A DNA stretch of 64,000 bases from Escherichia coli (lineage in GTDB: Bacteria; Pseudomonadota; Gammaproteobacteria; Enterobacterales; Enterobacteriaceae): assembly GCF_009931435.1 (NCBI RefSeq), contig NZ_CP043414.1; one strand, given 5' to 3'. Positions within the stretch are counted from its first letter, which is position 1; every line of letters starts with the position of its first letter. Under the pieces are notes generated by a model, which was given only the letters and a program-made list of their open reading frames with translations, made no database searches and had not been told where the DNA came from. Shown one piece after another: positions 464-6,164 of this stretch. Made by a program: the position numbers and the translations under genes.

Positions 464-734
464 ATCACGAAATACCACTCTTTCTACAGTCTATGCCTTT
501 ATTTTCTTTTATTAGGGAAGATTTTAATTTTATTTTATCAACTTGTTAATCATTACACCTCTATTTATATTTTCCCCCACTCCCCATTCTCCCTGACAAT
601 TTTCTTGTGGAACAAAGTGTTATTTAAGAAACAAGCAAATCATTCTGTCTCTTTAGACAAATTTTGACATCAAACATGATCTTTTTCGCTATATGTGTAA
701 GTATATAGCGGTTTTAATTATCAGGATATTACTT

Positions 735-1757
735 ATGTCACTAACCAGACGGAGGTTTACACAGATTCTTGCGTCGACATTGTTCCTGCATCATCTGCCG
801 TCCTTTGCACAATCAGTCAAATTCTGGGCCTCACTGACGCTTCCCGAAGCCCAAAACATTACACGCATCGTCAGCGCAGGCGCGCCCGCCGATTTACTAT
901 TGCTGGCTGTCGCGCCAGAAAAAATGGTCGGTTTTTCCTCTTTTGATTTTGCCCGTCAGGCATTAATTCCATTGCCAGAGCACATTCGCCAGTTCCCCAG
1001 GCTGGGACGACTCGCCGGGCGCGCCAGCACACTCTCGCTGGAAGGGCTTATGGCATTACATCCCGATTTGGTCGTTGATTGCGGCAATACGGATGAAACC
1101 TGGATCTCCCAGGCACGGCAGGTTAGCGAACAGACACAAATACCCTGGTTATTGCTTAACGGGAAACTGGAACAATCAGCAGAACAGTTAACAACGCTTG
1201 GCAAAACGTTAGGCGAAGAGCACCGCGCCGCAGAACAAGCCAATCTCGCCAGCCGCTTCGTTGGTGAAGCTCAGGCATTCGCCACCTCACCCGCCGCTAA
1301 CCTCAGCTTTTATGCTGCGCGCGGTCCTCGAGGGCTGGAAACGGGCTTACAGGGTTCGTTGCATACCGAGGCGGCGGAATTATTAGGTTTGCACAACGTC
1401 GCGCAAATAGCCGATCGCCACGGTCTGACACAGGTTTCCATGGAAAATCTCCTGCGCTGGCAGCCGGATATTATTCTGGTTCAGGAGGCCGTTACTGCAG
1501 ATTTTATTCGTCGTGATCCTCTCTGGCAGGGCGTGAAAGCGGTTGCGGAACAACGCATCTTATTTTTAAGTGGCCTGCCCTTTGGCTGGCTGGATGCCCC
1601 GCCGGGAATCAACCGTCTTCTGGGATTACGCAGACTTCACGCCTGGCTGGATCCCGCCATCAATCGCCAGTTTAAAAGTGACATGCAGCATTACGCCCAA
1701 CTGTTCTGGCATTGTTCACTCAGTGACGCCGACTATCAAAAATTGGTGGCGAGCTAA
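735..1757 (+). CDS. ABC transporter periplasmic substrate-binding protein (FecB/FhuD/BtuF-type, iron-siderophore/cobalamin class)
   Basis: N-terminal signal peptide MSLTRRRFTQILASTLFLHHLPSFAQS; overall class-III PBP-like composition; stop overlaps start of the downstream permease (TAATG). Start chosen at second ATG (track ORF starts at 693). Confidence 0.7.
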   Translation: MSLTRRRFTQILASTLFLHHLPSFAQSVKFWASLTLPEAQNITRIVSAGAPADLLLLAVAPEKMVGFSSFDFARQALIPLPEHIRQFPRLGRLAGRASTLSLEGLMALHPDLVVDCGNTDETWISQARQVSEQTQIPWLLLNGKLEQSAEQLTTLGKTLGEEHRAAEQANLASRFVGEAQAFATSPAANLSFYAARGPRGLETGLQGSLHTEAAELLGLHNVAQIADRHGLTQVSMENLLRWQPDIILVQEAVTADFIRRDPLWQGVKAVAEQRILFLSGLPFGWLDAPPGINRLLGLRRLHAWLDPAINRQFKSDMQHYAQLFWHCSLSDADYQKLVAS

Positions 1758-2737
1758 TGAGAACCGTAAACGGATGTATTTTGCTGCTGGCAGCTATCAG
1801 TATCACTTTTGCCGCCGTAAGTGGGGCTTATCATCTCGATATACAGCAACTGCTGGCGCTCATTCTTCGTCAAGAAAATGTTCCTGTGCAGGAACAAATT
1901 GTCTTCTGGCAAATCCGCGTGCCGCGTATTCTTGCTGCGCTGTTTCTGGGCGCGGCGCTGGCAGGGGCCGGAACCACCTATCAGGGAATGTTCCGTAATC
2001 CCTTAGTGTCACCGGATATTTTAGGCGTCTCCGCCGGTGCCGGACTTGGTGCCTGCGCGGCAATCCTGTGGGGATTATCCATTGTTTACATCCAGCTGTA
2101 CGCATTTTGCGGCGGGCTGATGGTGGTCGCGGGCGTCTGGTTGATTACGCGTCGGGTGACCCGCCACGATCCGATCTTAACCCTGGTGCTGGTAGGCATT
2201 GCGTTAGGAACGTTGTGCGGAGCGGGGATATCGCTAATAAAAACGCTGGCCGATCCTTACACCCAGTTACCGTCAATTACCTTCTGGTTGCTGGGGGGGC
2301 TGTCCACCGTGACCTTACGCGATCTCTGCTATGCTGCACCGATCATTCTCATAGGCTCCTTGCCCCTGTTTTTTCTCCGCTGGCGCATGAATTTACTCAC
2401 GCTTTCCGACGACGAAGCCCATTCGCTGGGACTGAACGTGACACGTCTGCGCTTTGGATTAATTGTCTGCGCCACACTCATCACCGCCAGCACGGTAGCA
2501 ATAGCGGGCATAATTGGTTGGGTCGGCCTGGTCGTTCCGCACATTGCCCGCTTGTTGACCGGTCATAACCATCAGCAGCTGTTGCCCATGGCAATGTGTA
2601 CTGGCGCGATTCTGCTCCTGCTTACCGATACGCTGGCACGCAGCATTGGAACAACAGAAATCCCACTTGGCATTCTGACCGCTTTTGTTGGTGCACCGTT
2701 TTTCCTGTTTTTGTTGTTACGCGGAGGTCGCCAGTGA
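1757..2737 (+). CDS. ABC transporter permease, FecCD/BtuC family
   Basis: Highly hydrophobic 326-aa ORF with multiple TM segments; translationally coupled upstream and downstream (GTGA overlap). Confidence 0.8.
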   Translation: MRTVNGCILLLAAISITFAAVSGAYHLDIQQLLALILRQENVPVQEQIVFWQIRVPRILAALFLGAALAGAGTTYQGMFRNPLVSPDILGVSAGAGLGACAAILWGLSIVYIQLYAFCGGLMVVAGVWLITRRVTRHDPILTLVLVGIALGTLCGAGISLIKTLADPYTQLPSITFWLLGGLSTVTLRDLCYAAPIILIGSLPLFFLRWRMNLLTLSDDEAHSLGLNVTRLRFGLIVCATLITASTVAIAGIIGWVGLVVPHIARLLTGHNHQQLLPMAMCTGAILLLLTDTLARSIGTTEIPLGILTAFVGAPFFLFLLLRGGRQ

Positions 2738-4314: not shown

Positions 4315-5165
4315 TTTTCCTTTCTCAGGCACAAATCGATGCGTTACTTCTGGAAGATATCCAGGGCGGTGACCTGACCACGCGAGCATTAAATATTGGA
4401 CACCAGCATGGCTATATAGAGTTTTTTCTCCGTCAGGGCGGCTGCGTCAGCGGAATTTCTGTCGCGTGTAAGATGTTAACTACGCTGGGATTAACTATTG
4501 ATGACGCGGTCAGCGACGGTTCTCAAGCGAACGCGGGTCAGCGGCTAATCCGTGCGCAAGGTAATGCCGCAGCACTTCATCAGAGATGGAAGGCAGTCCA
4601 GAATGTGCTGGAGTGGAGTTGCGGTGTTTCTGATTATCTCGCTCAAATGCTGGCGTTACTTCGTGAACGTTACCCTGATGGCAATATCGCCTGCACCCGA
4701 AAAGCAATTCCGGGCACCCGCTTACTGGCCTCGCAGGCAATTCTGGCTGCCGGAGGACTGATTCATCGTGCCGGATGTGCGGAAACCATATTATTGTTTG
4801 CCAACCACCGTCATTTTCTTCATGACAATCAGGACTGGTCAGGCGCAATCAATCAGTTACGTCGCCACGCACCCGAGAAGAAAATAGTTGTTGAAGCCGA
4901 CACGCCGAAAGAGGCAATCGCCGCGTTACGCGCGCAACCAGACGTACTTCAGCTCGACAAATTTAATCCGCAACAGGCAACTGAAATTGCGCAAATAGCA
5001 CCGTCGCTGGCTCCTCACTGCACGCTGGCTCTGACCGGCGGAATTAATCTAACAACACTCAAAAATTACCTCGACTGCGGCATTCGCCTTTTTATTACCT
5101 CCGCGCCTTATTACGCGACACCAGCTGACATTAAAGTCAGTCTGCAACCCGCAGCCTCTATTTAA
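4311..5165 (+). CDS. ModD-like protein (quinolinate/nicotinate-nucleotide phosphoribosyltransferase fold)
   Basis: QPRTase-like motifs LEDIQGGDLTTRA, CTRKAIPGTR, GGLIHRAG, VVEADTPKEA, LQLDKF. Confidence 0.65.
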   Translation: MIFLSQAQIDALLLEDIQGGDLTTRALNIGHQHGYIEFFLRQGGCVSGISVACKMLTTLGLTIDDAVSDGSQANAGQRLIRAQGNAAALHQRWKAVQNVLEWSCGVSDYLAQMLALLRERYPDGNIACTRKAIPGTRLLASQAILAAGGLIHRAGCAETILLFANHRHFLHDNQDWSGAINQLRRHAPEKKIVVEADTPKEAIAALRAQPDVLQLDKFNPQQATEIAQIAPSLAPHCTLALTGGINLTTLKNYLDCGIRLFITSAPYYATPADIKVSLQPAASI

Positions 5166-5190
5166 TTCTTTGTTAAACGGAATTTATTCT

Positions 5191-6164
5191 ATGAGACTCA
5201 AAAAACGTTATCTCTGCACAGCATTATCACTTGCCTTTACCCAGCAGGCCGTAGCGGCTCAGGAGAGTGACACGCTGACCGTATGGTCCAGTCCGGTATC
5301 ATCGACGACGACCACCGTTCTCGATCAACCCACCATGAAGGCCCTGGATAAACAGAATGTCGCTCAGGCATTAAGTGTCGTCCCCGGCGTGGTACTGCAA
5401 AAGTCAGGTAGCCGCAACGAAGAACAGGTCAAAGTTCGTGGCTTTGATAGTCGTCAGGTGCCGGTCTATTTCGACGGTGTGCCCATTTATGTTCCCTATG
5501 ACGGCAACCTCGATCTGGCGCGGATTCTGACCAACAATTTGGGGGCAGTTGAAGTTTCCAAAGGGTATTCGTCGCTGCTTCAGGGGCCTAATCAGATGGG
5601 CGGAGCCATTAATATCACCACCCAGAAGCCAACAAAACCTCTGGAAGCAAGTCTGGGATATCGCCAGGGATGGAGCCGTAGCCAGGACAATGCCTACGAT
5701 ATGCATGCTTCTGGCACAATATCGATGCCGATACCATTCAAAATCAGAACAGCGGCACGGTGGATTACAGCGGTCTGGATGCCGGTATTAAGGGGAAAAT
5801 CAGCAATATACTGGATGTAGGATTGAGCTACGCCCTGATCCACGCTGATACCAAACGTAAAGACATCGGCAAGATAACCGATCTGCCAACGCAGACAATG
5901 ACCGCATGGATGACTCTCAAACCGTGGGAGCCGTTAAGCGTAACGCTGTCGGAAGAGGCGCGTTCCTCCAGCTACAGCAACAGTGACGGTTCACAAAAAG
6001 CCGCCGGTTTTGCGGTGACCCACATTCGAGCCGATTACACCTTAGGTCATGGCTTCAGCGTTAATGCGTCGGTCAATAACCTGTTTGATACCAAATATGC
6101 CTACAGTGAAGGGTTTATTGAAGAAGGTCGCAATTTCTGGGCAGGTGTCGAATATACGTTCTGA
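5191..6164 (+). pseudogene. TonB-dependent outer-membrane receptor remnant (signal peptide and plug region fused out-of-frame to the last ~130 aa of the barrel)
   Basis: ORF 5170..5820 has signal peptide, TonB-box-like DTLTVW and plug-like sequence; ORF 5760..6164 in another frame ends with the typical C-terminal ...NNLFDTKYAYSEG...WAGVEYTF; combined length ~350 aa versus the usual 600-750 aa. Confidence 0.7.

What the first reader, a model, noticed from the sequence alone, without database searches (positions are those of the whole stretch)
693..6164. Accessory uptake locus between treA and ymgE: FecBCD-type ABC importer, methyltransferase, ModD-like gene and a degraded TonB receptor
Six consecutive plus-strand genes with overlapping stops and starts form an operon-like block inserted between treA and ymgE. 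The combination of an iron-siderophore/cobalamin-class binding protein, permease and ATPase with a class I SAM methyltransferase and a ModD/QPRTase-fold protein is unusual for a simple siderophore importer. It suggests import coupled to modification or processing of a small molecule, such as a metallophore or nicotinate-like compound. The cognate outer-membrane receptor is a remnant, so the locus may be decaying or may use a receptor encoded elsewhere.
Basis: partly seen in the sequence, partly recalled or inferred. Interest (0 to 1): 0.5.

Follow-up and report, generated by a model that had tools for sequence, protein, structure and literature searches.

The report
Molybdate-controlled uptake operon, mislabelled as iron
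This accessory E. coli operon, long annotated as an iron importer, carries a textbook binding site for the molybdenum sensor ModE and sits among molybdenum genes in many other bacteria, so it is most likely a second, TonB-dependent molybdenum uptake system, and in this strain its outer-membrane receptor is broken by a deletion.

Summary
Six co-directional genes lie between treA and ymgE, where K-12 has only ycgY: binding protein 735-1757, FecCD permease, ATPase, class I methyltransferase, ModD and a TonB-dependent receptor remnant. The receptor has a 997-bp internal frameshifting deletion; it is intact (656 aa) in other E. coli, and about 39% of complete genomes carry the locus.

The locus is already named in the literature as the prrA-modD-yc73-fepC cluster (CFT073, O157:H7 OI#55). 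It is described only as "possibly iron uptake", with no substrate shown.

My evidence points to molybdenum, not iron:
- A perfect palindrome, CGCTATAT-N8-ATATAGCG, sits at 687-710, 25 bp upstream of the true start codon. It matches the K-12 ModE operators of modA and moaA and is the only such site in 64 kb.
- The same box is conserved upstream of the orthologous genes in gamma-, beta- and epsilonproteobacteria.
- I found no convincing Fur box and no riboswitch.
- The permease's closest solved relative is H. influenzae MolB, a molybdate/tungstate type II importer that also sits next to modD.
- In other taxa the methyltransferase and ModD lie inside classical modEABC operons.

This is a new variant of a known kind. 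The roles of the methyltransferase and ModD remain unknown.

The parts
420..462 (+). treA terminator-like hairpin (GAGCAATGCCA...TGGCATTGCTC followed by TTTCTT); marks the upstream boundary of the locus
   Evidence: Read directly from the sequence. Its function as a terminator is inferred.
664..669 (+). Perfect -35-like hexamer TTGACA, 17 bp upstream of the operator. The -10 element is not resolved.
   Evidence: Sequence. The consensus promoter scan found no full promoter here, so the promoter assignment is only inferred.
687..710 (+). Predicted ModE (molybdate-responsive repressor) operator: CGCTATAT-GTGTAAGT-ATATAGCG, a perfect 8-bp inverted repeat fitting TATAT-N7-TAYAT
   Evidence: It is the only match in 64 kb. 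A weight matrix built only from the K-12 modA and moaA operators scores it 20.8 bits; the next best site in the window scores 11.6. The box is conserved upstream of orthologous genes in many genera.
735..1757 (+). Periplasmic binding protein (cluster A / Peripla_BP_2 type) with a Tat-like MSLTRRRF signal
   Evidence: An ortholog has a solved structure, 4pag (profile E 7e-78). H. influenzae MolA ranks 4th (1e-22, C-terminal lobe only), above the vitamin B12, haem and siderophore binding proteins.
1757..2737 (+). FecCD-family (type II ABC) permease, MolB-like
   Evidence: The best PDB match is HI1471 MolB (2nq2_A, 1.5e-64, 221 bits); the next is HmuU at 171 bits.
2734..3492 (+). ABC ATPase ('fepC' of the published cluster name), MolC-like
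   Evidence: HI1470 MolC is the best-matching type II importer ATPase in the PDB.
3502..4314 (+). Class I SAM-dependent methyltransferase ('yc73'); substrate unknown
   Evidence: AlphaFold model pLDDT 88; the closest folds are generic small-molecule methyltransferases with TM 0.5-0.59. In other taxa the gene is found inside modABC operons.
4311..5165 (+). ModD, a QPRTase-fold protein
   Evidence: TIGR01334 499 bits (cutoff 179); nadC 133 bits, below its cutoff of 198. All 49 orthologs keep R139, K140, H161, R162, E201 and D222 (M. tuberculosis QPRTase numbering) but have Phe in place of Lys172.
5191..5711 (+). 5' fragment of the TonB-dependent receptor gene prrA (signal peptide, TonB box DTLTVW, plug). 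After the junction the frame runs on to a stop at 5820.
5711..5712 (+). Junction of the 997-bp internal deletion (TC microhomology within imperfect 11-bp repeats)
   Evidence: Alignment to intact alleles L001 and L002 and BLAST. The same junction occurs in L090 and L091.
5712..6164 (+). 3' fragment of prrA (last 150 codons of the beta-barrel, in the original frame)
6172..6201 (.). Hairpin GCGGATAGC...GCTATCCGC between the convergent prrA and ymgE genes; a possible bidirectional terminator
   Evidence: Read directly from the sequence. Its function is inferred.

Best explanation
The locus is a ModE-controlled molybdenum (possibly also tungsten) acquisition operon, not an iron system.

How it would work in strains with the intact version. 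When cytoplasmic molybdate is low, ModE leaves the operator at 687-710 and the six genes are transcribed. The TonB-dependent receptor PrrA carries the molybdenum species across the outer membrane; whether that species is free molybdate/tungstate or a chelate is unresolved. The periplasmic binding protein hands it to a MolBC-type type II ABC importer. Two cytoplasmic enzymes, the Yc73 methyltransferase and ModD (a QPRTase-like protein with an altered active site), carry out a still unknown step tied to molybdate supply.

In this strain the receptor gene is destroyed by a 997-bp frameshifting deletion. At best the system works as a receptor-independent secondary importer, like H. influenzae MolBC-A. 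It is probably on the way to being lost.

Shown here: the gene content, the deletion, the operator sequence and its conservation, the homology to MolB and MolC, and the linkage of the methyltransferase and ModD to mod genes.

Inferred: ModE binding and repression, the transported species, and the enzyme roles.
For: 1. Operator. CGCTATATGTGTAAGTATATAGCG lies 25-48 bp upstream of the ATG at 735. It closely resembles the K-12 modA operator CGTTATATTGTCGCCTACATAACG and the moaA operator CGCTATATACATGATTACATAGCG. A matrix built from those two sites alone gives 20.8 bits here; the next best in 64 kb is 11.6. The pattern occurs once in the window, against 0.08-0.12 expected by chance.

2. Phylogenetic footprint. 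Across 84 related loci (1.52 Mb) there are 85 sites of at least 14 bits. Of these, 72 lie directly upstream of the binding-protein, receptor, methyltransferase or DUF2478 genes. The genera include Citrobacter, Raoultella, Serratia, Proteus, Providencia, Morganella, Shewanella, Burkholderiales and epsilonproteobacteria.

3. No convincing Fur box. The best match in the upstream region is 13/19, which is background level. No Rfam hit.

4. Transporter homology. The permease is closest to H. influenzae MolB and the ATPase to MolC. MolBC-A imports molybdate/tungstate and sits next to modD, HI1473 (PMC4031551, PMC3928620).

5. Gene neighbourhood.
- Aliarcobacter has modE-modA-mop-modB-modC-methyltransferase-modD behind a ModE box.
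- Halomonas has modB-modC-methyltransferase-modE.
- In H. cetorum the methyltransferase is next to napA.
- In Burkholderiales the cluster is flanked by modABC, ModD and modE.
- G. sulfurreducens has modE-modD-modABC (PMC2700814).

6. The receptor co-evolves with the cluster: 58% and 32% full-length identity to receptors of distant loci.
Against: - No experiment. ModE binding, molybdate repression and molybdenum transport are all untested for this locus.
- The binding protein is only a distant relative of MolA. No residue-level comparison of the oxyanion site was possible.
- Molybdate is small enough for porins, so a dedicated TonB-dependent receptor is unexpected. This leaves room for a chelated or different substrate.
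- The published view and all public annotations say iron.
- MolA itself has low affinity for molybdate, about 100 uM as cited, so even the reference system's physiological substrate may be debated.
- The promoter's -10 element could not be placed.
Confidence: 0.7

Rival explanations
1. It is a TonB-dependent ferric-siderophore (or other iron chelate) importer, as the literature and genome annotation assume.
For: The families involved (Peripla_BP_2, FecCD, a FepC-like ATPase, a TonB-dependent receptor) are those of siderophore systems. The locus is named and described as possibly mediating iron uptake (PMC12928451, PMC1890555). Public protein names say iron.
Against: The upstream region has no Fur box above background. 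A ModE operator is conserved across genera instead. The nearest solved permease is the molybdate importer MolB, not Fec, Fhu, Fep or Hmu. No siderophore synthesis, esterase or reductase gene is linked. The accessory genes also sit in modABC operons.
Confidence: 0.08
2. It imports an organic small molecule (corrinoid, haem, or a nicotinate- or quinolinate-like compound, or a metallophore ligand), which the methyltransferase and ModD then modify.
For: Type II ABC importers usually carry large chelates or cofactors. The QPRTase-fold ModD keeps most phosphoribosyltransferase residues. The methyltransferase resembles small-molecule methyltransferases and weakly matches the CpaM, CbiT and BchM models.
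Against: No cobalamin or other riboswitch. The methyltransferase and ModD also occur with classical ModABC, which imports only the oxyanion, and without any receptor or FecCD transporter. Their substrate is therefore unlikely to be an imported ligand. All regulation signals point to ModE.
Confidence: 0.08
3. In this particular strain the whole locus is a functionless relic on its way to loss. This is compatible with the molybdenum assignment for the intact locus.
For: The receptor gene is broken by the 997-bp deletion. Nine complete genomes share that junction and have also lost window 873-5539. In those genomes the operator flank has decayed from ATATAGCG to ATATTTTG.
Against: The five upstream genes and the operator are intact and full length in the window. 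The deletion hits the last gene, so it has no polar effect. H. influenzae MolBC-A functions, and no TonB-dependent receptor gene is listed in its published gene cluster.
Confidence: 0.35

Closest known systems
[quoted passage not shown]
   Same: It is the same locus: same genes, and the same ymgE..treA position (GR9 of strain BEN2908).
   Different: The window's copy has a 997-bp deletion in prrA. The literature proposes iron uptake without data; the evidence here points to ModE control and molybdenum.
Haemophilus influenzae MolBC-A (HI1470-HI1472) with modD (HI1473), a type II ABC importer of molybdate/tungstate
   Same: The permease and ATPase are the closest solved relatives. The binding protein is of the same structural class. 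modD is adjacent. Molybdate-dependent repression is reported for molB (PMC4031551), and a ModE operator is predicted here.
   Different: The binding protein is only distantly related to MolA. The E. coli-type locus adds a TonB-dependent receptor and a methyltransferase. The published list of the H. influenzae cluster (HI1469-HI1475) names a modA homologue and salX-cysU instead.
E. coli ModABC with ModE (high-affinity molybdate transport and its repressor)
   Same: The operator has the same type of sequence and sits at a similar distance upstream of the first gene's start codon. The metal is presumably the same.
   Different: ModBC is a type I importer with a ModA-type binding protein and no outer-membrane receptor. 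None of the proteins is homologous except for the generic ATPase fold.
modD-containing mod operons (Rhodobacter capsulatus modABCD, from my own knowledge; Geobacter sulfurreducens modE-modD-modABC, PMC2700814)
   Same: A ModD of the same family (TIGR01334, Lys172 replaced by Phe) is linked to molybdate transport genes.
   Different: Those operons use classical ModABC and have no receptor. The function of ModD is unknown there too.
TonB-dependent type II ABC uptake systems for iron chelates and vitamin B12 (FecABCDE, FhuABCD, BtuB/BtuFCD, HmuRSTUV)
   Same: The same overall architecture: receptor, cluster A binding protein, FecCD permease and ATPase.
   Different: Those systems are controlled by Fur or a B12 riboswitch. 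Here neither is present and the control element is a ModE box.

Membership tests
ModE regulon (molybdate-responsive repression) | Palindromic operator of the TATAT-N7-TAYAT type at the promoter or 5' end of the first gene | tested here: met
   687-710 reads CGCTATATGTGTAAGTATATAGCG. It scores 20.8 bits with a matrix from the K-12 modA and moaA sites; the next best site in 64 kb scores 11.6.
ModE regulon (molybdate-responsive repression) | The operator is conserved upstream of orthologous genes in other species | tested here: met
   72 of 85 sites of at least 14 bits in 1.52 Mb lie directly upstream of cluster genes, in many genera.
ModE regulon (molybdate-responsive repression) | ModE-molybdate binds the site and represses transcription | not testable with these tools
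   Needs a gel-shift or footprint assay and reporter assays.
MolBC-A type II molybdate/tungstate ABC importer | Permease and ATPase closer to MolB and MolC than to other type II importers | tested here: met
   2nq2_A MolB 221 bits against HmuU 171 and BtuC 144. MolC is the best type II ATPase match.
MolBC-A type II molybdate/tungstate ABC importer | Binding protein orthologous to MolA with an oxyanion-binding pocket | tested here: inconclusive
   The profile search ranks MolA 4th (1e-22, C-terminal lobe only) after 4pag, 4ovk and 4hn9. Binding residues could not be compared because the MolA paper is not held.
MolBC-A type II molybdate/tungstate ABC importer | modD adjacent to the transporter genes | tested here: met
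   ModD at 4311-5165; HI1473 modD lies next to HI1470-72.
MolBC-A type II molybdate/tungstate ABC importer | Transports molybdate or tungstate | not testable with these tools
   Needs uptake or binding assays.
Fur-regulated TonB-dependent siderophore uptake | Fur box at the promoter | tested here: not met
   The best match in 380-760 is 13/19; 28 matches that good occur across the window.
Fur-regulated TonB-dependent siderophore uptake | Complete receptor with plug and 22-strand barrel | tested here: not met
   997 bp (332 codons) of the barrel are deleted in the window. The gene is intact (656 aa) in other strains.
BtuB/BtuFCD cobalamin uptake | Cobalamin riboswitch in the leader | tested here: not met
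   No Rfam match in 1-7000 at E up to 1, apart from one chance-level sRNA hit outside the locus.
ModD (TIGR01334) | Score above the curated cutoff of the family model | tested here: met
   498.9 bits against a cutoff of 178.85.
Quinolinate phosphoribosyltransferase NadC | Score above the nadC cutoff and a complete catalytic set including Lys172 (M. tuberculosis numbering) | tested here: not met
   133 bits, below the cutoff of 198. Lys172 is Phe in all 49 ModD sequences; the other residues are kept.

The most novel reading that the evidence does not exclude
The prrA-modD-yc73-fepC locus is present in about 40% of E. coli and in Proteus, Providencia, Morganella, Citrobacter and Serratia. It would be the first dedicated TonB-dependent outer-membrane pathway for molybdenum (free oxyanion or a chelate) in enterobacteria, mislabelled as iron uptake for 25 years. 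Its conserved partners Yc73 and ModD would define an unknown cytoplasmic step in molybdenum handling that is shared with classical mod operons.
Probability: 0.45. Interest if true: 0.75.

Novelty: new variant of a known kind. Interest (0 to 1): 0.55.

Why it matters
Molybdenum enzymes (nitrate, DMSO, TMAO and formate oxidoreductases) drive anaerobic respiration. From my own knowledge, that respiration lets Enterobacteriaceae bloom in the inflamed gut and grow in urine, and tungstate has been proposed as a way to poison this pathway.

A second, ModE-controlled, receptor-assisted molybdenum importer in pathogenic E. coli lineages and other uropathogens would change how molybdenum and tungsten acquisition is modelled. 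It would correct a widespread "iron" annotation. It would also give ModD and the Yc73 methyltransferase a testable context.

For this window specifically, it shows the locus caught at an intermediate stage of decay.

Tried and rejected
- Rfam scan of 1-7000 for riboswitches (B12, Moco): nothing.
- Fur-box scan: only background-level matches.
- Consensus promoter scan: no clear sigma-70 promoter at the operator. The scan flagged the palindrome itself as terminator-like. I read it as a protein-binding site because its sequence, not just its pairing, is conserved and matches the known ModE operators.
- NCBIfam search for the binding protein and receptor: only weak generic hits, far below the cutoffs.
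- Fold search with the methyltransferase model: only generic small-molecule methyltransferases, so no clue to the substrate.
- Literature: ten searches found the published name of the cluster but no functional study and no link to ModE or molybdenum. Three key papers are not held: Tirado-Lee 2011, Ye & Xu 2001, and Studholme & Pau 2003. I could not consult the RegPrecise regulon database, which may already list this operon under ModE.
- An opine-metallophore or PDTC-like biosynthesis role for the methyltransferase and ModD was considered from memory and dropped for lack of any supporting gene.
- Independent recurrence of the 997-bp deletion was considered. A shared 2-bp junction makes a single event followed by recombination more likely, but this is not resolved: the flanks of L090 and L091 are less similar to the window than those of the intact L001.

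
Full report
**Observation**

The window is E. coli chromosome. It runs from the treA 3' end (28-405) through the locus to ymgE (-), ycgR, emtA and ldcA. Six + strand genes follow treA:
- a periplasmic binding protein;
- a FecCD permease (1757-2737);
- an ABC ATPase (2734-3492);
- a class I SAM methyltransferase (3502-4314);
- ModD (4311-5165; TIGR01334 499 bits against a cutoff of 179);
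- two fragments of a TonB-dependent receptor gene (5191-6164).

RefSeq relatives start the binding-protein gene at the ATG equivalent to 735, not 693.

K-12 has only ycgY between treA and ymgE. The locus is present at 80% or more of its length in 2139 of 5426 complete E. coli genomes.

**The receptor remnant**

In other strains the receptor gene is 1971 bp, encoding 656 aa. The window lacks 997 bp after position 5711. The junction shows a TC microhomology inside imperfect 11-bp repeats, and the deletion shifts the frame.

Nine complete genomes share this junction and have in addition lost window 873-5539. That leaves 138 bp of the binding-protein gene and the receptor's 3' end. In those genomes the regulatory palindrome's right flank has also mutated.

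The window is therefore an intermediate stage of decay. Its other five genes are full length.

**What is already known**

The locus has a published name, the prrA-modD-yc73-fepC cluster. It was first noted in uropathogenic strain CFT073 and in O157:H7 (OI#55, ECs1693-ECs1699), and was recently listed as GR9, ymgE..treA, in strain BEN2908. It is always described as "possibly" or "proposed" iron uptake (PMC1890555, PMC12928451, citing Ye & Xu 2001).

I found no functional study. Public protein names say iron, FecCD or TonB-dependent receptor; only ModD carries a molybdenum name.

**Regulation points to molybdenum**

Immediately upstream of the true start codon lies CGCTATAT-GTGTAAGT-ATATAGCG (687-710), a perfect 8-bp inverted repeat.

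I fetched the two classical K-12 ModE operators. Their identity as ModE sites is established knowledge, not tested here.
- modA: CGTTATATTGTCGCCTACATAACG, 20-43 bp before the ATG.
- moaA: CGCTATATACATGATTACATAGCG.

A weight matrix made from those two sites alone scores the window's site at 20.8 bits, and the next best in 64 kb at 11.6. The TATAT-N7-TAYAT pattern occurs once in the window, against 0.12 expected by chance.

By contrast the best Fur-box match upstream is 13/19, which is background level. Rfam finds no riboswitch.

**Comparative evidence**

I used an alignment of methyltransferase homologues to fetch 80 loci from a collection holding one genome per species.

The gene order binding protein - permease - ATPase - methyltransferase - ModD - receptor is conserved in E. 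albertii, Citrobacter, Serratia, Raoultella, Yokenella, Proteus, Providencia, Morganella and Erwinia. Variants are:
- Shewanella lacks ModD;
- Burkholderiales have receptor - DUF2478 - binding protein - permease - ATPase - methyltransferase;
- another metagenomic locus adds a THEP1-like NTPase.

With the K-12-derived matrix, 85 sites of at least 14 bits occur in 1.52 Mb. Of these, 72 lie directly upstream of the binding-protein, receptor, methyltransferase or DUF2478 genes. Proteus, Providencia, Morganella and Shewanella often have a second box in front of the receptor gene.

The receptors of distant loci are full-length homologues of PrrA, at 58% and 32% identity.

**Gene neighbourhood**

- In Aliarcobacter a ModE box precedes modE-modA-mop-modB-modC-methyltransferase-modD.
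- In Halomonas the order is modB-modC-methyltransferase-modE.
- In Helicobacter cetorum the methyltransferase is next to napA.
- In Burkholiales-type loci, that is in Burkholderiales, the cluster is flanked by modABC upstream and by ModD and modE downstream. An epsilonproteobacterial locus has modABC just upstream.
- Geobacter sulfurreducens has modE-modD-modABC (PMC2700814).

So the methyltransferase and ModD are molybdenum-linked whatever the transporter type. This argues against their acting on an imported organic ligand.

**Transporter homology**

- The permease's best solved relative is H. influenzae HI1471 MolB (221 bits; HmuU 171, BtuC 144). The ATPase's best type II relative is HI1470 MolC.
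- MolBC-A is a type II importer of molybdate/tungstate. It is repressed by molybdate and sits next to modD, HI1473 (PMC4031551, PMC3928620).
- The binding protein has a solved ortholog of unknown ligand (4pag, profile E 7e-78). It is related to MolA only over the C-terminal lobe (1e-22, rank 4), but more closely than to the vitamin B12, haem or siderophore binding proteins.

**Accessory enzymes**

ModD keeps the QPRTase residues R139, K140, H161, R162, E201 and D222 (M. tuberculosis numbering, from my knowledge of that enzyme). All 49 ModD sequences collected have Phe in place of Lys172. It also scores below the nadC cutoff. This suggests a phosphoribosyltransferase-like enzyme with a different substrate.

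The methyltransferase models well (pLDDT 88) but resembles only generic small-molecule methyltransferases.

The roles of both enzymes are unknown. I infer only that they act in the cytoplasm on something tied to molybdate supply.

**Verdict**

The best explanation is a ModE-repressed molybdenum (or tungsten) acquisition operon of the MolBC type. It is extended by a TonB-dependent receptor and two conserved enzymes, and it is receptor-defective and probably decaying in this strain.

- Confidence is about 0.7 for the molybdenum/ModE assignment.
- It is lower, about 0.5, that the receptor carries free molybdate rather than a chelate.
- The iron reading is about 0.08 and the imported-organic-ligand reading about 0.08. 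Both are poorly supported.

The locus itself is known and named. The molybdenum reassignment and the receptor-containing architecture make it a new variant of a known kind. One caveat: I could not check RegPrecise or Studholme & Pau 2003, which may already note the ModE site.

Noticed in passing
window 45,634-47,585: An IS21-family element (istA 340 aa, istB 260 aa, minus strand) is present in the window. It is absent from the closest complete genome (strain 2020CK-00188), which has an IS5-family transposase remnant annotated close by.
   Followed up: partly
window about 22,340 (relative L093 32,207-33,427): The closest complete genome carries an ISKox3 (ISL3-like) insertion between hlyE and umuD. 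The window lacks it.
   Followed up: no
window about 9,100-13,000 (seen in L090, L091, L093): In related genomes cvrA, next to ldcA, is annotated as a C-terminally truncated pseudogene. It is followed by small hypothetical genes and a leucine-rich-repeat protein gene. The window is collinear there, but I did not check it.
   Followed up: no
L090 and L091, about 5,795-5,818: In the nine genomes that lost most of the locus, the ModE-box right flank has changed from ATATAGCG to ATATTTTG. This is consistent with relaxed constraint after gene loss.
   Followed up: partly
L007 (contig JAIJJM010000374.1): A 3.2-kb contig assigned to a Collinsella sp. metagenome-assembled genome is 99% identical to the E. 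coli ATPase-methyltransferase-ModD segment. It is probably a mis-binned E. coli contig.
   Followed up: no
L022 and L023 (Affinibrenneria salicis scaffold 1): Two copies of the whole cluster, with identical matches, lie about 765 kb apart on one scaffold.
   Followed up: no
E. coli complete genomes: Some genomes hold up to 3 matching places, and 12 places are on plasmids. The locus, or part of it, is therefore occasionally duplicated or mobilised.
   Followed up: no
window 735-815: The binding protein's N-terminus, MSLTRRRFTQILASTLFLHHLPSFAQS, looks like a twin-arginine (Tat) signal. A Burkholderiales-type ortholog also has RRR; another ortholog (L004) does not.
   Followed up: no
window 42,635-42,659: The best Fur-box-like matches of the whole window (15/19 and 14/19, overlapping on both strands) lie here, far from the locus.
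   Followed up: no
window 5,540-7,000 compared with L090/L091 and L001: Genomes that share the window's deletion junction are less similar to it in the flanks (98.4%) than a genome with the intact gene (99.5%). Either the deletion allele moved by recombination or the event recurred; this is unresolved.
   Followed up: partly
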